From the IMG/VR virus record IMGVR_UViG_2541047860_000002: 64,000 nt of DNA; one strand, given 5' to 3'. The notes under the pieces were generated by a model that saw only the letters and a list, made by a program, of their open reading frames with translations, searched no databases and was not told the origin of the DNA. The stretch is from a virus (Duplodnaviria > Heunggongvirae > Uroviricota > Caudoviricetes). Made by a program: the position numbers and the translations under genes. Of the stretch, positions 4,667-39,112 are shown in pieces (position 1 is the stretch's first letter; the number at the start of each line of letters is the position of its first letter).

Positions 4667-7600
4667 TTAATCCTCAAGCAGAGCATCCAGCGACGGGTCA
4701 TTAATAGTTGTGCTAGCACGTGGTCGCGGTTGCGGCTGCGATGTTTTGACAACCTTATCCGGATCGCCTTTTGTATTGTTCTTGTTCACATTCAGAAGGT
4801 CGTTCAGGATAGAGCAGATGTTATCCAGCGCCTTCAACATAGCAGGATCGTTATTTATAGTGTCAGTAGTTAATGGTTGTCTTATTCCGCTTCGTGCGAG
4901 ATCTGTTACAGTAGGAAGCTGTGGTGGCATAGCAAGAAAAGGTTCTTGCACGGCTGACGCAGAGCCAAATATGGCATTATTGGCTTCGTTTGATATACCT
5001 CTAATGCTATCTGCGGTTTGTTGAATACCATTATTCAGCCAACTACCGGCGCTCCTGGTAAGCGGGCTAATAGCCCTAGCAATTGTTGAGTTCTGCCCAG
5101 TAGCCTGATAAACCAAATCATTAACAATGCCAGTGCCATCTACCCCACCAATAAGTCGTGAAACGTTATCGCCAATTGCAGGTAACACAGCAGAGCTAAT
5201 ACGTTTCAGACCTGTTAATGACGAGTCAAACAAAGAGCCAAGCACCCCCTTATCTTCACCATCAATTACCTTGTATCCATTGTCATAAACTGGAATCCCC
5301 CTTGAGTTTACAGAGATTTTTTCACTCTCACTTGCCGAAGAAACACCGGAAAGAAGATCCACTGAAGGCATATCGCGTTCAGCTTTTGGTCTTTTTTGTA
5401 AAGCGTCTCTTATATCAGTTACCTGGCTTGCTTTTTGAAATCCAAAAGATTTACCGGTTAAGCTGGATATCTTTTCAGTAAGAGCCTGATCCATTCCTTT
5501 CGCTTTTTCGGAAAGCGAAGATATAGAACCAAACGAAGTCGCCGACGCAAAATCCTTAATCAGGCCAAGGCTTGTACCAGCAAGGCTGGTAGCCGCACCT
5601 CCAAATAAATTACCTACCCCGCTGTCATTTATAGCGATTAATCTCTCAAGCAGACTTGATGGCGAGCCAGTATTAACATCAACATTCTCTGGATTAATCG
5701 GTTGCGATTGATTGCCTGTTTTTTGTGGCTTTTTGACTGCCTGGGCATGTTGTGCAACCTCAATTGGCTGTTGTGTTGCTGTCGGAACGGCATTCAAAAC
5801 TGGTTGAGCTGGAGATTTTCCATTAGCATATTTTACCTTGCGACCAACACTATATTGCGAATTGCGGGCAATTAGCTGACCACCATTTTCTTTCTGAATT
5901 TTATTAATCCGCGCCAATGTTTCGTCAGAGAATTGTCCCTCCCATCGACCAGTGTTTGTGTTAAATGCCCCAAGAGCATTCTTTATGAACTCATTGTTAA
6001 CCGCCGGGTTTCCACCTTCTTTCGTCGCTATTGCACGAACTAATTGCGTCATAACCTCTGGGTTGCTGACGTCTATTTTTTCATTAGGCGAGACGCCAAG
6101 ATATTTGCTGACGTTATCAATATATTGATTAGTATTGTTCTCCTTTGGGGGTGCCCATTTGGAAATAATACTGGATACCGTCTGTAGCTTCTGATACCCA
6201 GCGGCGGCGCTGGTGCCGTTGTAATAGCTTGACACCTGGTTTGCCAGCGCCCTGATCCCTTCTTCAGGCGTGTTAAATCGCGCAAAACGTTGTTCACCTT
6301 TTGCATTTGGTGCTTCCAGCGCCGCCCCTTCCTGATTAGCGAAAACAAGGTTGCCGAGGTTATTATTCCGGTAATTGCGGTTTTTAGCGTTGCTGCCACC
6401 AATATTCAGATCCGCTGCAATGGTGTTGCTGGCAGGGGCATTAAATTCAGCCGGGGAAGTATACCCGTGCTCACCAACACCATCTTCACCATCACGCCCG
6501 CCTTGTAGCTGCTCACCTAAAGAATGAATCGCATCGACGGTCTTCTTGGTGCCATCCTCAACCGCTTTTTTTACTTGTTTCGTGTTTTCGTCAGTGGATA
6601 AAAATGTATCCTTAAGGCTACCAAAAACAGATTTGGTGATATCTACTGCACCGTTAACACCACGAGCAATATCTCCGGTATCAAAATTCTGAAGTTTTTC
6701 ACCAGCTCTTTCAAATCCTAGCGCAGAAATTCCTTTCCCTATCAAGTTTGTTGCGCCCGACACCAAGCCCCCCATATCGAGCACATTAGCTGTTGCGTAA
6801 GCCGTTTTTTGCTGTTCGGATACAGCATCATCGTCACTTAAACCAAAGGCTGCCTTTTGCGCCTCTGTATCTGTGTAACCATCTATGGCGTCATATCCAG
6901 CCATTGCCAGCGAACCGATGATAGGGACCGCTCTTGCCGCTGTGGATGCTGCTGATTTAACACCTATTTTTGCAGCACTTTTGAGGGCTACAGATTCAGT
7001 TTTTTTCTTTGCAATGGCTTCGCCGGTTTTAATGGTAGTATCTTCAGCCACAACACCAGCTGACTTCACGGCCTTAGCAGTATTTTTTGTTTCCTTTGCA
7101 ATCCCCTTTGATGTATCGCTGATAGTGCTTACATCTTTGGGTTTGCTGATCTTATTTTTAACTGCTTTGGCTGTTCCGACACCAGTGCCAGCTGCAGCGC
7201 TACCGGCAGCAACTTTTTCGCCAACGGAGAGTGCTTTTTTCCCAAGATTGCGGCCTTTCCTTTTCGATTTGTTCCGTTTATTTTTTCCCGCCCGATCACC
7301 AATATTGATTTTATTTCTTCTGCTTGCTCGATTTTTCCAGAGATCACTTAAGCCGAACTTATTTCCAGAAGACACTGATTTCCGAAGCTTAACTATCTCG
7401 TCAGAAACATTTTCCAGACCATCAATTATTTTGTTGTCATTGGTCTGAAGGATTTTGGTTTGCTCTTCTACTGCTTGTGCGGATTTTGTCTCAACAGCGT
7501 TATTGAACGCTTTTGCAGATGTTGATTTTTGAGAATTCACCGCCGCCGGATAAGTAATTACTGGTGATATCGCTTTCGAGGTTGATGTTTCTTTTTTCCC

Positions 7601-8449
7601 CTTTTCTACCCATTCTTTAAGAGATTCTGCTTTACCTGTGATCTCTTTAGTTATGTCGTACATGCCACGAGCCGCCATCCATAACGGCCCACCAGCACCG
7701 ACACCAGCTGCATTTGTTAAAGACTCTTCACTGGAAGACTGATTGCCATCTACCCCCATAATGGAACCTAGCTTTCTGAGAAAGCCAGCTTGTAATTTTG
7801 CGTCGGCTTTACGTGCGTTCTGCAATTCTTTTTTTTTGGCTACATCCTCATTGCTTTTTTGGGATACAAAACGTCCATTACTATCCCGCAGCGGGCCTTT
7901 TAGACTTTGGGGGGATTGTGGTTCAAGAGGTGCTGAATTAGCAGCTACCGGTATAAAACCGTCCGATTTTCGGATGGTCTGACGTGATTGCACAGAGCGA
8001 ACACTTTCTGGTGTGTTCGTTGCAACGATAGAGCGGTCCACGGTTTGGTTTATCGTTGCCCTCTCCTTTTTAGCAGGGAGACGTTTTTTATATGGGTTAG
8101 TTTGGACATCTCTAACGCTATCAGATGTACTTTGCTCGTAGTCTTTACGCCTGCGTGATAGTCTGTTGCTAACTCTGCCTTGCCTTTCGTCCTGTTGAGT
8201 TATGGTTCTTGCCCCAGAAAGAATGGCGTCTTTTACCTCAGCAAGAGCTTTAAGTTCGTTTGTGCTCGCTTCCTGAATAGCGTCAATTATTGCGATACGG
8301 TCTTTATTTTCTTTCAAAATAACCTCTCTTTTACCAGCGCGATCAACGTTTCCCAGCTTGAGCTTTGTATTTTTCTTCCAGGGCTTTTGACATATGGAGT
8401 GCTCGCCATTGCGGTAATTGTTCAACGTCGCTAACGGGCTGATATCCAT
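4667..8449 (-). CDS. Large virion protein (Sit-like tape-measure / putative peptidoglycan-hydrolase domain)
   Basis: 1260-aa ORF, K/R-rich low-complexity stretches, central block (FARFNTPEEGIRALANQVSSYY..) resembling a muralytic domain; position as sit in P1. Confidence 0.5.
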   Translation of the reverse strand: MDISPLATLNNYRNGEHSICQKPWKKNTKLKLGNVDRAGKREVILKENKDRIAIIDAIQEASTNELKALAEVKDAILSGARTITQQDERQGRVSNRLSRRRKDYEQSTSDSVRDVQTNPYKKRLPAKKERATINQTVDRSIVATNTPESVRSVQSRQTIRKSDGFIPVAANSAPLEPQSPQSLKGPLRDSNGRFVSQKSNEDVAKKKELQNARKADAKLQAGFLRKLGSIMGVDGNQSSSEESLTNAAGVGAGGPLWMAARGMYDITKEITGKAESLKEWVEKGKKETSTSKAISPVITYPAAVNSQKSTSAKAFNNAVETKSAQAVEEQTKILQTNDNKIIDGLENVSDEIVKLRKSVSSGNKFGLSDLWKNRASRRNKINIGDRAGKNKRNKSKRKGRNLGKKALSVGEKVAAGSAAAGTGVGTAKAVKNKISKPKDVSTISDTSKGIAKETKNTAKAVKSAGVVAEDTTIKTGEAIAKKKTESVALKSAAKIGVKSAASTAARAVPIIGSLAMAGYDAIDGYTDTEAQKAAFGLSDDDAVSEQQKTAYATANVLDMGGLVSGATNLIGKGISALGFERAGEKLQNFDTGDIARGVNGAVDITKSVFGSLKDTFLSTDENTKQVKKAVEDGTKKTVDAIHSLGEQLQGGRDGEDGVGEHGYTSPAEFNAPASNTIAADLNIGGSNAKNRNYRNNNLGNLVFANQEGAALEAPNAKGEQRFARFNTPEEGIRALANQVSSYYNGTSAAAGYQKLQTVSSIISKWAPPKENNTNQYIDNVSKYLGVSPNEKIDVSNPEVMTQLVRAIATKEGGNPAVNNEFIKNALGAFNTNTGRWEGQFSDETLARINKIQKENGGQLIARNSQYSVGRKVKYANGKSPAQPVLNAVPTATQQPIEVAQHAQAVKKPQKTGNQSQPINPENVDVNTGSPSSLLERLIAINDSGVGNLFGGAATSLAGTSLGLIKDFASATSFGSISSLSEKAKGMDQALTEKISSLTGKSFGFQKASQVTDIRDALQKRPKAERDMPSVDLLSGVSSASESEKISVNSRGIPVYDNGYKVIDGEDKGVLGSLFDSSLTGLKRISSAVLPAIGDNVSRLIGGVDGTGIVNDLVYQATGQNSTIARAISPLTRSAGSWLNNGIQQTADSIRGISNEANNAIFGSASAVQEPFLAMPPQLPTVTDLARSGIRQPLTTDTINNDPAMLKALDNICSILNDLLNVNKNNTKGDPDKVVKTSQPQPRPRASTTINDPSLDALLED

Positions 8450-32336: not shown

Positions 32337-33065
32337 ATGATGTCAGAAAAAGTTAAAGATAATCCGTCTATAAATGAAACAGAACTAAAATCATTTTCTG
32401 AAATAATAAAAGATAAAATATTTAACAAGGTTTTTGCATATGTTGTCATTTCTTTTCTAATTTTTAACTGGAAGGATATTTTAATTATATTAAAGTCAAA
32501 GGACGACATCCTATATACATTATCTATTGTTTTTGTTGGTGGTAATGTCCCGTTCTTTGATAATTGGATTGTATCCCCGTGGGTTTATCACTTTGTAATC
32601 CCATTTGGTTATGGGGTATTTGCATCTGTGTTAGCTCCTATTCTCACACTGAAGATATCTAAGCTAACAAGTAAATTATACACTGAAATAAGATATTTAG
32701 ATGAAGATGCTGATTATGATAAAAGAATAGAATTGCAAAGAAAGAAAACAAAGTTAAATCAAGCAACCAATGACGCTAAATATTCAAAACAAATCTTAGA
32801 TGAAAATGAAAATAAACTTAATGACCTAGCTACGAAACGGCGAGAAATTTGTGGCGCGATAAAACTATTGCATTCTGATGTTGGCAGTATTATTGAACTA
32901 TATAAAAATAAGGGGGTTAGCATTGAATCTCCGCAAGATTTATGTGATTTTATAGTCGCTATAAAAAGCACATCATTCTATAATGATGACAAGCATTTTA
33001 ATAAATTGGTGTCTGATATTTCCAGTTTGTTTGATAATACTGGAATTGATCTTTCAAAAAAATGA
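32337..33065 (+). CDS. AT-rich gene for a multi-pass membrane protein with C-terminal coiled-coil domain
   Basis: ~27-30% GC versus ~48% surroundings; three predicted TM helices then ~130-aa K/D/N-rich soluble tail; no family recognised. Confidence 0.5.
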   Translation: MMSEKVKDNPSINETELKSFSEIIKDKIFNKVFAYVVISFLIFNWKDILIILKSKDDILYTLSIVFVGGNVPFFDNWIVSPWVYHFVIPFGYGVFASVLAPILTLKISKLTSKLYTEIRYLDEDADYDKRIELQRKKTKLNQATNDAKYSKQILDENENKLNDLATKRREICGAIKLLHSDVGSIIELYKNKGVSIESPQDLCDFIVAIKSTSFYNDDKHFNKLVSDISSLFDNTGIDLSKK

Positions 33066-34942: not shown

Positions 34943-35596
34943 TCAAAGTATCACGGTATCTTCATCAACTTCTTTCCCAGCCAGTGACTTTGGCTGGGAG
35001 GTGCCTGCTTTAACTTTTTCATGCCCAATAATGGAAAGGAACGAAGCGAGTATGCCTGTTTTTTGCTCTTTCTCGACTGTACCGGTCATCTGCTCTACGT
35101 AATCCGCACTGGCAACGTTGTGGTATACGGTCGCGTAGCAACACAGGATCATCAGAATATGCTCCGGCCTGATATCCTGCCAGTTCACCCTGTAGACTTC
35201 TTCTCCGTTACCGTTGTATTCGGTATCAACGATAGAGTCGGGGATTTCGAAAGCACCTTTGTTATTTTGCGGCAGGGATAATAGTTTCTGGAGTTTTAAC
35301 TCTTTGTATCTTTCCATCCCGACGATGATTGCTGCTCTACCATCGGCATGACGGGTCTTGAGAGTCACCTGGCTTGCTCCGGTGCCAGCGGAGATCGTTG
35401 GCGTAATTTCGTCTACCAGTACCTTAAATTTGCTTTTCCGCAGGGCTGCTATAGCTGGAGGAATTTTTTGCTTTTGCTCCAATGCTGACGCGGGAAGGGG
35501 TTTTACTTCGTTAATAATGAGAGCACCGTCTTTCAGTATTGCAGTGAGCATTTGAGGCTTGCTGGTGGTCAGGCTGAATATTGCGATCTTTTCCAT
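34943..35596 (-). CDS. Hypothetical protein
   Basis: ORF track start trimmed to MEKIAIF with GGAGG RBS. Confidence 0.4.
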   Translation of the reverse strand: MEKIAIFSLTTSKPQMLTAILKDGALIINEVKPLPASALEQKQKIPPAIAALRKSKFKVLVDEITPTISAGTGASQVTLKTRHADGRAAIIVGMERYKELKLQKLLSLPQNNKGAFEIPDSIVDTEYNGNGEEVYRVNWQDIRPEHILMILCCYATVYHNVASADYVEQMTGTVEKEQKTGILASFLSIIGHEKVKAGTSQPKSLAGKEVDEDTVIL

Positions 35597-35938
35597 TGTC
35601 CTTCCTCCACGGATGACGGATACAAAAAAAGGCCGCACATGGCGGCCTGCTTTGGCGTTATGACTCCCTACCGCGCTTCGGCTGAAAGTTAATCGTCAAA
35701 AGAACCTTCAACGGGAGCCGTTAGCGCGATGGATTATGTGCAGTTTGTGATTTCCAAAATAGTGTCAACCACTTTTTGTGGATTTTATTTTTTGACAGAA
35801 ATTTGGCCTAAATCATGTTGATTTGGCTGATTATTTTTATAACATAAAAGTCATTTTGATTGCATGAAGGACGGTGCAGTGAAGTTAAGGGTTTTAGGGA
35901 CCGCGCTCGCGGCTAAGATGGTAAGGTATGGAGTTAAT

Positions 35939-36763
35939 GAAATGTTTTTTATAAAAAATGGAAAAAGATTTTCCTCAACAATACTAGCTACTGTTGTTGC
36001 TCTTTTTGTCCCCACACTCACCTTTGCTTATGATTTTAGCAAAATTGACTGCAATTCCCCTAAAACTAGGCAGATGTTAATCGATGATTATAATGAACTG
36101 CTGAAGGACGATCAGGAAGCAATTTCTGTAATCGATGCTTATAATCAGATCAATGAGATAAGAGAAAAAAATAAGCTCCAATGCCTGGGAACGTATGAAT
36201 TCTCAGATGGAAGTGCGCTTAGGGTTAGATATAAGTTATATTTAAATAGCCTCGGCACCCCCATATATGAATTTGCTCCAGTTGAGGAGTTAACGCAAGA
36301 TGACGTAAGCGCATCTATCCAAAATATCCCTGCAACCACAGCGAGTAAGGCTGGAGGGAATGAAGAAACGTACTCCTGTAAAGTGGCTGTAACCTACAAT
36401 GGAAAGCGCTCTAACTATATGGGGGATACTGGAGTCTGGGATCGTGTGATTACTGACTATGGCACTTATTTCTCATGGGATTTGCCGCGCGGAAATCGAG
36501 GCAATAGTACAGGCCAGGATGCTTTTAGTGGCATGGACGAATCAAAGCCAGCATTAGAAAATAAGCTGGTGAGAAAGGAAGTCGAAAAAGATGGTAGCGT
36601 GGTTGATGAATTTAGGACTGATGTAAGTTATGGGGAAAAACAACCAGTTCATAAGTTTGTATATGCTCGTAGAATAAAACCTACAGGCATGAGAGAGTAT
36701 TATGTTACGGATTTAACAGACAAGCGGGCGTTTATGTTTCTGAATTGTCAGAGAGATTCGTGA
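35939..36763 (+). CDS. AT-rich gene for a secreted protein of unknown function
   Basis: Signal-peptide-like N-terminus (MFFIKNGKRFSSTILATVVALFVPTLTFA); low GC; ORF track start 35864 is an upstream extension. Confidence 0.45.
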   Translation, partial: EMFFIKNGKRFSSTILATVVALFVPTLTFAYDFSKIDCNSPKTRQMLIDDYNELLKDDQEAISVIDAYNQINEIREKNKLQCLGTYEFSDGSALRVRYKLYLNSLGTPIYEFAPVEELTQDDVSASIQNIPATTASKAGGNEETYSCKVAVTYNGKRSNYMGDTGVWDRVITDYGTYFSWDLPRGNRGNSTGQDAFSGMDESKPALENKLVRKEVEKDGSVVDEFRTDVSYGEKQPVHKFVYARRIKPTGMREYYVTDLTDKRAFMFLNCQRDS

Positions 36764-36803
36764 TTGACATAGCAGGCTTACTATTAAGCCTGCTTTTTGG
36801 CTA

Positions 36804-37163
36804 TTACTCGGTAATAGTTTTGCAGTTGTTTTGATTTAATGACAATCCTAGCTTGCTAGCAGCCAACTCATTTTCTGTGTGAGAACCAGCAAAAATGAAG
36901 CCTTGTTTTATCTTATTTACGGTGAAATATTTATTATACATGAACGCCCAGATAAATGAGGCAATCCACGGGCCAATTCCGGCTGTGAGGAATGCCAGTA
37001 TCAGCATCACTACGAATACCCCAATAAAAGTTATAAAGTCTTTCCTGAACAAAGCTGGAAAAGCACCAAACAAGAATGTAGTCCAGGAAAAACCATAAAA
37101 ACCGGTGATTGATTCGCCAGTTTGAGGGTTTTCAAGTTTAATTTTAGTAGCCACGATTATCAT
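36804..37163 (-). CDS. Small inner-membrane protein
   Basis: 119-aa ORF with two predicted TM helices. Confidence 0.4.
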   Translation of the reverse strand: MIIVATKIKLENPQTGESITGFYGFSWTTFLFGAFPALFRKDFITFIGVFVVMLILAFLTAGIGPWIASFIWAFMYNKYFTVNKIKQGFIFAGSHTENELAASKLGLSLNQNNCKTITE

Positions 37164-37299
37164 CCTTTTACATAAAAAACATATAGTTATAGTGCTGTGT
37201 GAGATTCTAATGTTACTAATTTACACTTTGTAATGCAATTAAATAACTTTAGGCAGTGAAAGTAACTATTCGTGGCAGACTATCGTTAAGACCTTTCAA

Positions 37300-37584
37300 T
37301 TATGGTTGCTGTAAGTGGAGGGGAACAGCCTGTTCTATCATCTCGCGTATCAAGCCAACTTCAAGTAGTTCCTCGGATTCCCAGTATCTGTTTGTCACCA
37401 GATCCAGGCTGGCTATGACCTTGTGCCGGTCATTCGGCATAGCCAATTTTTCTGCTATAACCATCAGTGAAAACTCTTCATCCAGTAGAATTTGATACCA
37501 GTTTTTTGATAGTTCCACTTCCCTTATGAGACTGAAACGTCGCTGGATTGTGGCAGCAGAGTAAGTGAAATCTATTTTCTTCAT
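37300..37584 (-). CDS. Hypothetical protein
   Basis: 94-aa ORF. Confidence 0.35.
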   Translation of the reverse strand: MKKIDFTYSAATIQRRFSLIREVELSKNWYQILLDEEFSLMVIAEKLAMPNDRHKVIASLDLVTNRYWESEELLEVGLIREMIEQAVPLHLQQP

Positions 37585-37643
37585 CGTGCGGAGAATCCGG
37601 TTATTTAGTAGTTAAAGCCCCGGACAGGCCGGGGCAACAGTAA

Positions 37644-38585
37644 TTAACTAACAATCCAGTCCGTAGCAACAACATCCTCTGGAGCTAAATCAATCGCATG
37701 GATTTTCCCATCCCGGATAGTGCGCCAGTGCTTTCGTGATCCACCTTCGGGCCATACCCATACACCTTCAGGCCAAGATGCTCGACGGCATACGATTGCA
37801 TACCCTGTTTTAATCCTCTCTCTGGCGGTATGCAACGACAGGTTTGCCTTTGGACTTTCAGGCACAGGATGGTGGATTGCCTGAAACATCCCCATCTTTG
37901 GATGATACCAGCGTTTATTGCGTGGTTCTGCCTCCGACATCACCTGCTTAAAGGCTTTCCGGAAGGGGGCCAGAGCCACAATGGAGCGTCGCGCAAGCAA
38001 GCCATCGGGGGTCAAAAACTCATGTGTATCGGTGGGAATCCGGTAAGCGTTAACCAGGTTGCGGCATTTGGCTTCAGTCAGGCCGCATTTCGCCGCCAGC
38101 TGGCGGTAGCCAATGTAACCTTCCGGCATATTGCCTTTCTTGATTTGCTCGAGTGTTTCAGCAACCATCGATACTTGTGCTGATACCTCGGCTACCTGGG
38201 CATTTACGGCGTTGATCCGGCGTTCATGCTCAAGATGCATTTGCGCCATTTCAGCCAGGATTTCGGCTTTTGATTTTAACTGTACCCGGGCATTCTCCAG
38301 TTCGCGCCAGCGGTCCACTAGCCGGGCGGTAAATTCGGGAGAGAGCTGCGCGACGACAACAATGCTGTCTCGTTTTCCTTGCTCGCCTTCGAAGACATAG
38401 ACCGGATCTTTGACAACCTTCCCTAAGTTATTGATTCTTTCGACGAACTCATTTTGAGTTTCTCGGATGACACCGCTAGCCATCATATTGCGAATGGTAC
38501 GTAAAACATTGCCGTGACGACTACCAACTAACTCTGCAATATCTAGGCTACTCATTGTCGCTTTTTGAGAGATGGACAGATTCAT
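37644..38585 (-). CDS. Phage antirepressor (Rha/Ant N-terminal domain)
   Basis: N-terminal SSLDIAELVGSRHGNVLRTIRNM typical of Rha/AntA family. Confidence 0.65.
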   Translation of the reverse strand: MNLSISQKATMSSLDIAELVGSRHGNVLRTIRNMMASGVIRETQNEFVERINNLGKVVKDPVYVFEGEQGKRDSIVVVAQLSPEFTARLVDRWRELENARVQLKSKAEILAEMAQMHLEHERRINAVNAQVAEVSAQVSMVAETLEQIKKGNMPEGYIGYRQLAAKCGLTEAKCRNLVNAYRIPTDTHEFLTPDGLLARRSIVALAPFRKAFKQVMSEAEPRNKRWYHPKMGMFQAIHHPVPESPKANLSLHTARERIKTGYAIVCRRASWPEGVWVWPEGGSRKHWRTIRDGKIHAIDLAPEDVVATDWIVS

Positions 38586-38800
38586 CAGTGCACCTCCACG
38601 CAGTTCATCGGCAGATTCCAGTAATTGAGGATCTCCATCGCATCAAGAGTGAAGCGAGCAGCAAAAATGCAGGGTTCTTCGGGAAGGTATGAGCGCGCCT
38701 CTGATTCGGTAGCAGCCATGACGCAGATATACAGGTGCTTTTGGCAGGAATAGAAACGCCAGATAAATTCAGAATGAGTTGGGGTAGGGATAGTAGCCAT
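38585..38800 (-). CDS. Small protein translationally coupled to antirepressor (Icd-like position)
   Basis: 71-aa ORF whose stop overlaps the ant start. Confidence 0.35.
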   Translation of the reverse strand: MATIPTPTHSEFIWRFYSCQKHLYICVMAATESEARSYLPEEPCIFAARFTLDAMEILNYWNLPMNCVEVH

Positions 38801-38829
38801 ATTGGCAGCCTCCTTTTGCTAATTTAAGG

Positions 38830-38940
38830 AGCTACCGCGTGAGGTCTCAATCTCAATGGCGGTAGCACTGGCTGGGTTGAGACTACCGGCGCAAAAGGGA
38901 ACCGGCCTGCCTTTCGGCAGCCCAGCCAGCACTACCATTG
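38830..38940 (-). ncRNA. Candidate structured leader / antisense-type RNA upstream of icd-ant
   Basis: Nested inverted repeats: GCTACCGC/GCGGTAGC, and GGTAGCACTGGCTGGG (38861-38876) pairing 14/16 with CCCAGCCAGCACTACC (38921-38936); no ORF. Confidence 0.25.
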
Positions 38941-39112
38941 ATCTTGGAGCTATACGCTACGTATGGCTGTGCGATGGCATGACACAAAAAAAGACGCTTT
39001 CGGCGTCTGTGTCGCCTTTTGCATTATCCGGGGTCTCAATCCCGGCACCCGTTTTTCTAAGGTGCCGTAGAAATATACCCCACGATAATGCCAGGGCGCA
39101 ACAGTCAGTATT

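What the first reader, a model, noticed from the sequence alone, without database searches (positions are those of the whole stretch)
35864..37163. AT-rich moron pair: secreted protein of unknown function and a convergent small membrane protein
ORF 35939-36763 has a classic signal peptide and markedly lower GC than flanking genes. It is followed tail-to-tail by a 119-aa two-TM protein (36804-37163). Both lie in a non-structural island between late genes and the antirepressor locus. Such morons in temperate phages often encode superinfection exclusion, lysogenic-conversion or defence functions.
Basis: partly seen in the sequence, partly recalled or inferred. Interest (0 to 1): 0.5.

Follow-up and report, generated by a model that had tools for sequence, protein, structure and literature searches.

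The report
SimB-like exported protein plus membrane protein cassette
In a D6-like phage-plasmid, the slot that holds phage P1's superinfection-exclusion (sim) genes carries a swappable AT-rich cassette: an exported two-domain protein related to P1 SimB, and an unrelated, widely conserved small membrane protein. The simB link is already in the public annotation, so this is a modest refinement rather than a discovery.

Summary
The window is a D6-like phage-plasmid.

**ORF1 (35942-36763, 273 aa)**
- It has a Sec-type signal peptide.
- Its N-terminal domain is 52% identical to the whole mature P1 SimB.
- A disordered linker joins this to a highly conserved all-beta C-terminal domain with no Pfam or PDB relatives and no detectable relation to SimC.

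**ORF2 (36804-37154, 116 aa, GTG start)**
- It belongs to a strongly conserved small membrane-protein family found in proteobacterial chromosomes, jumbo phages and Lactobacillus phages.
- Its function is unknown.

**The cassette**
- The two genes form one 1.39-kb low-GC block (35922-37313), between mat and the c4-icd-ant immunity region. P1 keeps simABC next to the same immunity operon.
- Other D6-like plasmids carry unrelated exported proteins in this slot.

**Most likely function**
- ORF1 is probably a periplasmic superinfection-exclusion factor. This is inferred, not shown.
- The only P1 protein assigned superimmunity (SimC) has no homologue here.
- ORF2 is not demonstrably its partner.

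GenBank and a 2019 paper already call this gene a simB homologue. What is new is the domain architecture and the modularity of the locus. Interest is modest.

The parts
35922..37313 (.). Exchangeable low-GC cassette: ORF1, terminator, ORF2 and the ORF2 upstream spacer
   Evidence: blastn against allele-B D6-like plasmids (L004-L006) loses homology exactly at 35921 on the left and regains it at 37314 or 37359 on the right. GC is about 0.39 against a window mean of 0.47.
35867..35921 (+). Remnant of the ribosome-binding site and first codons (GTG 35879, VKLRVLG.ALAA) of a 202-aa exported-protein gene found at this slot in other D6-like plasmids. It is in frame with ORF1.
   Evidence: Allele-B gene L004:5938-6546 starts VKLRVLGAALAA. 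tblastn gives 65% identity over 20 aa at 35879-35938. The homology breakpoint is at 35921. AAGGA lies 7 nt before the GTG.
35942..36763 (+). ORF1, a 273-aa exported two-domain protein (homologue of D6 orf79, WP_001427910)
   Evidence: dN/dS is 0.19 against D6.
35942..36028 (+). Sec-type signal peptide (aa 1-29, predicted cleavage TFA|YD)
   Evidence: Sequence features and the crude rule. AlphaFold pLDDT is below 50 for aa 1-16. The position is equivalent to the P1 SimB signal peptide.
36029..36289 (+). SimB-like domain (aa 30-116): one helix packed on a 4-stranded antiparallel sheet, with two conserved Cys
36290..36361 (+). Disordered, fast-evolving linker (aa 117-140)
   Evidence: pLDDT is below 50 for aa 117-138. 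Against D6 it has dS 0.53, dN 0.15 and a 4-aa indel.
36362..36760 (+). Conserved all-beta C-terminal domain (aa 141-273). It has invariant first and last Cys and the motif F-x-W/Y-D-x-x-R/H-G-N/M-R-G-N/D-S-T-G.
36771..36794 (+). Intrinsic-terminator-like hairpin (10-bp stem, 4-nt loop, then TTTTT) ending the ORF1 transcript
36804..37154 (-). ORF2, a 116-aa small membrane protein (GTG start) of the phrog_4915 family
   Evidence: Invariant motifs are GFYGFSWTT.FFG.FPALFR.DF.TF and WAFMYNKYYT.
37155..37299 (-). AT-rich spacer between the pmgF-like gene and ORF2, with no terminator on the minus strand
37300..38942 (-). Context: pmgF-like gene (37300-37584), Rha-type antirepressor (37644-38585), icd (38585-38800) and C4 antisense RNA (38855-38942). 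This is the immI-type region that flanks sim in P1.
34943..35596 (-). Context: mat (maturation control) gene, the conserved left border of the variable slot

Best explanation
The slot between mat and the immI (c4-icd-ant) region of this D6-like phage-plasmid corresponds to the P1 sim (superimmunity) locus, which flanks the same immI operon in P1. It is a recombination hot spot that holds interchangeable genes for exported envelope proteins.

Proposed mechanism for ORF1:
- ORF1 is exported by the Sec pathway and its signal peptide is removed (inferred).
- The mature periplasmic protein has two domains, each probably stapled by a disulfide. A SimB-like alpha/beta domain is tethered by a flexible linker to a conserved beta-barrel-like domain.
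- It acts in the periplasm of cells carrying the plasmid to block genome entry of superinfecting D6/P1-type phages after adsorption (inferred). This is what was reported for P1 Sim.
- Because SimB is translationally coupled to SimC in P1 but covalently fused to a different C-terminal module here, the SimB-like domain is most simply read as a shared adaptor or targeting module, and the C-terminal module as the variable effector (inference).

ORF2:
- ORF2 is an independently distributed small inner-membrane protein that travels in the same cassette.
- Its role is unknown. At most it is a second, independent envelope-acting factor.
For: - Identity of the element: 96% identity to phage D6 and 99.9% to about 92-kb E. 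coli/Salmonella plasmids.
- Position: P1 has simA-simB-simC directly beside c4-icd-ant. Here C4 RNA, icd and ant lie within 2 kb of ORF1.
- Homology: mature ORF1 aa 31-116 match all of mature SimB at 52% identity, E 6e-27.
- Export: a signal peptide is present in ORF1 and in 7 of 9 tested proteins of this slot from P1 and other D6-like elements, against 2 of 76 other window ORFs. Cys pairs are conserved in both domains.
- Accessory, swappable nature: at least four different gene sets occupy the same slot, bounded by conserved flanks. Synonymous divergence from D6 is 0.18, against 0.01-0.08 in neighbouring genes, while dN/dS is 0.19.
- Modularity: the C-terminal domain occurs with a SimB-like N-domain, with an unrelated N-domain, or alone.
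- Other contexts of the C-terminal domain: an integrase island next to a Type I methyltransferase in Buttiauxella, and a run of exported or lipoprotein genes on a mobile-element-like contig.
- Literature: Sim is cited as preventing injection of superinfecting DNA into the cytoplasm (PMC8546580). simA, simB and simC are non-essential for P1 lytic growth (PMC10695390). simABC is a low-GC variable region of P1-like plasmids (PMC9603915).
Against: - The P1 annotation assigns superimmunity to SimC and calls SimB only a 'putative accessory function'.
- ORF1 has no detectable similarity to SimC by BLASTP or hhalign, and the window has no simA or simC homologue.
- A standalone SimB-like protein is a chromosomal orphan with no phage context (L037). 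The domain is therefore not exclusive to phage exclusion.
- No promoter was identified, and expression in the lysogen is unknown.
- No PADLOC defence model matches.
- A co-variation test with the presumed target failed. An allele-B plasmid (L044) has a Sit injection transglycosylase about 98% identical to the window's.
Confidence: 0.5

Rival explanations
1. ORF1 and ORF2 work together as a two-part envelope barrier, analogous to T4 Sp (periplasmic) plus Imm (inner membrane). ORF2 would alter or guard the inner-membrane entry site, and ORF1 would act on the incoming tail tip.
For: - They are exchanged as one block.
- Full-length ORF1 and enterobacterial-plasmid ORF2 hits are both found in 56 PLSDB plasmids.
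- One product is periplasmic and the other membrane-embedded.
- ORF2 homologues in virulent jumbo phages lie among early genes.
Against: - ORF1-type genes occur without ORF2 in L007 and L010.
- ORF2 homologues stand alone in chromosomes of Cedecea, Citrobacter, Variovorax and others, with no ORF1-like neighbour.
- The genes are convergent, so they are not co-transcribed.
- ORF2 is nearly invariant (at least 99% in 45 plasmids) while ORF1 varies from 80 to 100%.
- No sequence relation to Imm or Sp was shown.
Confidence: 0.15
2. ORF1 is a periplasmic inhibitor or binding protein, for example of a peptidoglycan hydrolase or a protease. It would benefit the lysogen as a lysogenic-conversion factor rather than specifically excluding phage.
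For: - SimB-like single-domain proteins exist in bacterial chromosomes.
Against: - There is no Pfam hit to MliC, PliC or cystatin models even at E up to 10.
- Full-length relatives were found almost only on D6-like phage-plasmid contigs.
Confidence: 0.15
3. The cassette is passenger cargo with no role in phage-phage or phage-host conflict. ORF2 is a host-type membrane housekeeping gene picked up by the element, and ORF1 is a periplasmic protein of unrelated physiology.
For: - ORF2 belongs to a family conserved at 50-70% identity across Gamma-, Beta- and Alphaproteobacteria, in non-mobile chromosomal contexts.
- No defence-system model matches either protein.
Against: - Every gene set seen at this slot in the D6-like plasmids and in P1 encodes exported proteins.
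- The slot is a known variable low-GC region next to the immunity genes.
- Both genes are kept under purifying selection on the phage-plasmid.
Confidence: 0.2

Closest known systems
Phage P1 sim (superimmunity) operon simA-simB-simC
   Same: - It occupies the same position beside the c4-icd-ant immI operon.
- It has low GC and is variable among relatives.
- All its products carry signal peptides.
- The ORF1 N-domain is a clear SimB homologue.
   Different: - There is no SimA or SimC homologue here.
- SimB is a free 111-aa protein in P1. Here its domain is fused through a linker to an unrelated conserved beta domain.
- A pmgF-like gene and ORF2 lie between the locus and ant.
- The exclusion phenotype is documented only for the P1 locus.
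Phage D6 orf79 / orf80 and pYU39_89 'simB' (GenBank MF356679; PMC6799933)
   Same: - These are orthologues: ORF1 is 92.8% and ORF2 100% identical at protein level by tblastn.
- They are already annotated as simB-like, and the vicinity is noted as divergent between D6-like plasmids.
   Different: - The annotation uses the long upstream start.
- It does not note the two-domain architecture or the alternative alleles.
- It does not note that only the first third of the protein is SimB-like.
T4 Sp (spackle) and Imm superinfection-exclusion proteins
   Same: They combine a periplasmic or exported protein with a small inner-membrane protein, both made by the resident phage and acting at the DNA-entry step. 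This is an analogy from established knowledge.
   Different: No sequence or fold relationship was shown, and the two genes here are distributed independently of each other.
MliC/PliC-type periplasmic lysozyme inhibitors and cystatin-fold inhibitors

Membership tests
P1 sim (superimmunity) locus | Located beside the immI operon (C4 RNA, icd, ant) | tested here: met
   C4 RNA lies at 38855-38942 (Rfam 76 bits), with icd and the Rha-type ant downstream. Here a pmgF-like gene and ORF2 intervene.
P1 sim (superimmunity) locus | Homology to SimB | tested here: met
   52% identity over 86 aa, E 6e-27, covering all of mature SimB.
P1 sim (superimmunity) locus | Homology to SimC, the product annotated as conferring superimmunity | tested here: not met
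   BLASTP E 0.88. hhalign probability is 0.1-0.2% for the two ORF1 domains against SimC. tblastn of SimC against the window gives E above 2.
P1 sim (superimmunity) locus | Homology to SimA | tested here: not met
   tblastn of SimA against the window gives a best E of 0.94. hhalign finds no match.
P1 sim (superimmunity) locus | Product exported through a cleavable signal peptide | tested here: met
   This is sequence-level only. The n/h/c regions and an A at -1 are present, and the crude rule is passed. The feature is conserved in homologues. No SignalP run and no experiment.
P1 sim (superimmunity) locus | Confers exclusion of superinfecting phage after adsorption | not testable with these tools
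   Requires plating, adsorption and DNA-entry assays.
Moron (independently transcribed accessory gene in a prophage) | Lower GC than flanks and presence/absence polymorphism among close relatives | tested here: met
   GC is 0.38-0.40 against 0.47, the lowest 3.8% of windows. The block is replaced in allele-B and allele-C plasmids.
Moron (independently transcribed accessory gene in a prophage) | Own promoter and terminator | tested here: inconclusive
   A terminator follows ORF1 (36771-36794). No consensus promoter lies upstream of ORF1 or ORF2. ORF2 may be read from the ant operon.
MliC/PliC lysozyme inhibitors | Match to the family profile, or a specific fold match | tested here: not met
Cystatin superfamily | Match to the family profile, or a specific fold match | tested here: inconclusive
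DUF2628 (label that UniRef gives some ORF2 homologues) | Match to the Pfam DUF2628 model | tested here: not met
   No Pfam family for ORF2, P0021 or P0022 at E up to 0.1, nor for ORF2 at E up to 10. The UniRef names appear.
Known anti-phage defence systems (PADLOC) | Match to any PADLOC model | tested here: not met
   No hits for ORF1, ORF2, the allele-B proteins or SimC.

The most novel reading that the evidence does not exclude
The sim slot of P1/D6-type phage-plasmids may be a modular toolbox of periplasmic exclusion proteins. In this reading a conserved beta-barrel effector domain is combined with interchangeable targeting domains (SimB-like, or an unrelated helical one), or is used alone. 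The family is currently outside Pfam and the PDB, and only 31 cluster representatives were found among 1.84 billion. ORF1 would then be the first tractable single-polypeptide version, and would reveal what SimB does and how the 40-year-old Sim phenotype works. ORF2 could represent a second, very widespread family of small membrane proteins that phages borrow to close the inner-membrane entry route.
Probability: 0.2. Interest if true: 0.6.

Novelty: new variant of a known kind. Interest (0 to 1): 0.33.

Why it matters
P1-type phage-plasmids are common in E. coli and Salmonella and carry resistance genes, so what decides whether a cell can take up a second one shapes their spread. The Sim exclusion phenotype has been known since 1982, but its mechanism is unknown.

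This locus shows three things:
- The SimB module is reused, fused to a different and highly conserved periplasmic domain.
- The whole slot swaps between sets of exported proteins.
- The arrangement gives a simple one-gene construct for testing the function of SimB-type domains.

The gain is incremental, because the gene is already labelled simB-like in public records and no function was demonstrated here.

Tried and rejected
1. SimC relationship of the C-terminal domain. BLASTP and hhalign were run against SimC (with its only two full-length homologues), SimA and the allele-B 202-aa and 130-aa proteins. All were negative.
2. Fold assignment.
   - The first AlphaFold model, built from 10 sequences, was poor for the C-domain (pLDDT 58), and its Foldseek PDB search was uninformative.
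   - The afdb50 library was unavailable.
3. Co-variation of the sim-slot allele with the Sit injection transglycosylase, prompted by a remark in PMC6799933.
   - Sit (window 4667-8449) is itself mosaic among D6-like plasmids.
   - An allele-B plasmid (L044) has a Sit about 98% identical to the window's, so there is no strict coupling (n = 3).
4. P1 C1-operator consensus near the cassette. There was one 3-mismatch hit elsewhere in the window, which is chance level.
5. Conserved gene neighbourhood for ORF2 homologues. None was found, in Cedecea, the Citrobacter T6SS-adjacent locus, or the 121Q early region.
6. Pfam, NCBIfam, PADLOC and PDB sequence searches for both proteins and for the separate domains returned nothing significant. 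A weak Lactamase_B_2 hit for the long ORF1 (E 0.003, below the cut-off) was dismissed.
7. The name 'HrgC', given to the 121Q homologue of ORF2, could not be traced in the literature.
8. The P1 genome paper (PMC523184) is not held. Details of Sim processing therefore rest on the GenBank notes, on citations in PMC8546580 and on my own knowledge.

Full report
**What the window is.** The region 35600-37300 is 96.2% identical to Escherichia phage D6. It is 99.9% identical to a series of about 92-kb non-mobilizable E. coli and Salmonella plasmids. The window is therefore a D6-like phage-plasmid, a relative of P1. In the D6 record the two genes are orf79, 'putative superimmunity accessory function protein; similar to P1 gene simB', and orf80, 'hypothetical; similar to p492 of phage 121Q'. 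They are flanked on the left by mat and the homologues of P1 genes 26 and 25. On the right are a pmgF-like gene, a Rha-type antirepressor and icd. Rfam places a C4 antisense RNA at 38855-38942 and an isrK-like RNA at 38987-39065, both on the minus strand. The right flank is thus a P1-type immI region.

**Checking the observation.**
- The ORFs are as described.
- For ORF1 the open frame begins at 35864. The start supported by a GGAG 8 nt upstream, and by the point where PHROG 13054 begins to align, is ATG 35942, giving 273 aa. RefSeq's CDS start falls at about the same place.
- The stretch 35867-35921 is a relic. It carries the AAGGA and GTG start and the first dozen codons (VKLRVLG.ALAA) of a 202-aa gene that occupies this place in other D6-like plasmids. 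It happens to be in frame with ORF1.
- The signal peptide is typical. A crude rule that ORF1 passes is passed by only 2 of 76 other non-overlapping ORFs of the window.
- For ORF2, all 22 aligned homologues begin M-A (21 of them M-A-T/V/I/Q/K). This corresponds to the GTG at 37154, which has AAGGA 8 nt upstream, so the protein is 116 aa.
- GC is 0.40 for ORF1 and 0.38 for ORF2, against 0.47 for the window. The block is in the lowest 3.8% of same-size windows.
- A hairpin with a T-run at 36771-36794 ends the ORF1 transcript.
- Against D6, ORF1 has dN/dS of 0.19, so it is a functional gene. Its synonymous divergence is 0.18, far above that of its neighbours (0.01-0.08). The peak is in the linker and the start of the C-domain, which indicates mosaic exchange.

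**Anatomy of ORF1.**
- BLASTP aligns aa 31-116 with the whole mature P1 SimB at 52% identity, E 6e-27. The rest of the protein has no similarity to SimC.
- A word-indexed search of 5.8 billion proteins found only 11 clusters. Three of them keep the last roughly 135 residues at 55-83% identity but have a different N-terminal domain.
- An exhaustive profile search of 1.84 billion representatives found 31 proteins. About 20 carry the SimB-like domain alone, as exported proteins of 86-148 aa. The rest have the C-terminal domain alone (145-170 aa, exported) or joined to yet other N-terminal regions.
- With this 34-sequence alignment AlphaFold gives a confident model with mean pLDDT 82.7. It has a helix packed on four strands (aa 30-114), a disordered linker (aa 117-138) and an all-beta domain (aa 141-271).
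- Neither domain matches Pfam at E up to 10, and a profile of the C-terminal domain finds no solved structure by sequence. Profile-profile comparison finds no relation to SimC, SimA or the proteins of the alternative cassette.
- Each domain has a conserved pair of cysteines. That fits a periplasmic protein.

**The locus is a swap site.** Among about 120 D6-like plasmids in PLSDB, 52-56 carry the window's arrangement. In the others, homology stops at window position 35921 and resumes at 37314 or later. Four arrangements were seen:
- Allele A: ORF1 and ORF2, as in the window and in D6.
- Allele B: a 202-aa and a 130-aa gene. Both products have signal peptides and neither is related to ORF1.
- Allele C: a single gene with a different N-domain on the same C-domain. 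It abuts the antirepressor directly, with no ORF2 and no pmgF.
- A distant 88-kb metagenomic relative: the 202-aa gene followed by a SimB-like/C-domain fusion that is 57% identical to ORF1.

P1 has simA, simB and simC at its own immI-flanking site, and all three carry signal peptides. The literature already lists simABC among the low-GC variable regions of P1-like plasmids (PMC9603915). It also notes a simB homologue, with no simA or simC, in the D6-like plasmid pYU39_89, and divergence around it (PMC6799933).

**ORF2.**
- It belongs to PHROG 4915.
- Homologues at 50-80% identity occur in chromosomes of Enterobacterales, Burkholderiales and Alphaproteobacteria. They also occur in 121Q-type jumbo phages at about 55%, and more distantly in Lactobacillus phages.
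- The motifs GFYGFSWTT.FFG.FPALFR.DF.TF and WAFMYNKYYT are invariant.
- Genomic neighbourhoods are unrelated to one another.
- There is no Pfam, PADLOC or PDB match.
- In the D6-like plasmids examined it accompanies ORF1 only in allele A: both hit counts in PLSDB are 56, and the fetched allele-B and allele-C loci lack it. It is almost invariant, while ORF1 ranges from 80 to 100% identity.
- It lies downstream of ant and the pmgF-like gene on the same strand, with no terminator between. It may therefore be expressed with the antirepressor operon rather than in the lysogen.

**Interpretation.**
- Shown: the homology to SimB, the shared immI-flanking position, the export signals, the modular architecture, and the cassette behaviour.
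- Inferred: that ORF1 blocks entry of superinfecting phage DNA. This is the phenotype reported for P1 Sim (Devlin 1982 and Kliem & Dreiseikelmann 1989, as cited in PMC8546580).
- The weak point is that the P1 record assigns the phenotype to SimC and only a 'putative accessory function' to SimB. There is no SimC here.
- The fusion itself is informative. A domain that is translationally coupled to SimC in P1, and covalently joined to another conserved periplasmic domain here, is likely to act together with whatever follows it.
- I tested one prediction of a Sit-targeting model, namely co-variation of the slot allele with the injection transglycosylase. It failed in one of three comparisons, so the target remains open.
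- I put the exclusion reading at about 0.5. A cooperating ORF1/ORF2 pair is at 0.15, a periplasmic inhibitor with a host-directed role at 0.15, and neutral cargo at 0.2.

**Verdict.** The finding is real and correctly described apart from minor coordinates. Its core, a simB-like gene in the variable low-GC region next to the immunity genes, is already in GenBank and in the literature. What is added here:
- the two-domain architecture, with a new conserved C-terminal domain;
- the absence of SimC;
- the set of alternative alleles, all of which encode exported proteins;
- the independent, very widespread ORF2 family.

It is a new variant of a known kind, of modest interest.

Noticed in passing
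window 37647-37830 (minus strand; C-terminus of the antirepressor 37644-38585): The last roughly 60 aa of the Rha-type antirepressor resemble a Tad2-like (Thoeris anti-defence 2, PF11195) domain. The Pfam match is weak (E 0.44) but spans the whole profile. The segment is homologous (E 8e-11) to a separate 109-aa ORF in the distant relative L010 (6857-7186, minus strand), which hits PF11195 at E 4.6e-5 and 24.3 bits, against a cut-off of 25. This may be an antirepressor fused to an anti-defence domain.
   Followed up: partly
window 32337-33065 (+): A 242-aa gene with membrane-like segments has GC of 0.29, far lower than the finding itself. It lies directly after RelE/HigA toxin-antitoxin genes. 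It belongs to PHROG 8191 (unknown function) and has no Pfam or PADLOC match. It is present in some D6-like plasmids and absent in others.
   Followed up: partly
window 4667-8449 (-): The Sit-type tail injection transglycosylase (PHROG 7182, 1260 aa) is strongly mosaic among D6-like plasmids. Lengths range from 1260 to 1478 aa and some segments fall to 25-60% identity, while neighbouring structural genes stay at 95-100%.
   Followed up: partly
window 35620-35648 (-): A GC-rich hairpin followed by a T-run lies on the minus strand just upstream of the mat start codon. No minus-strand gene lies upstream of it that it could terminate.
   Followed up: no
window 38987-39065 (-): An isrK-like Hfq-binding sRNA (Rfam 59 bits) lies immediately upstream of the C4 antisense RNA in the immI region.
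   Followed up: no
L039 1716-5052: The standalone C-terminal-domain homologue P0133 sits in a run of seven consecutive small genes. All encode proteins with signal peptides, lipoprotein boxes or membrane anchors, on a 42-kb contig that looks like a mobile element.
   Followed up: partly
L017 2874-10295 (Buttiauxella massiliensis): A homologue with the alternative N-domain and the C-domain (270 aa) lies between a Type I restriction-modification methyltransferase and a tyrosine integrase. This suggests an integrated island.
   Followed up: no
L014 1-5360 (Citrobacter koseri): An ORF2 homologue (60% identity) follows directly after a T6SS VgrG, DUF4123, effector and PAAR gene string. No such context is seen in other species.
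   Followed up: no
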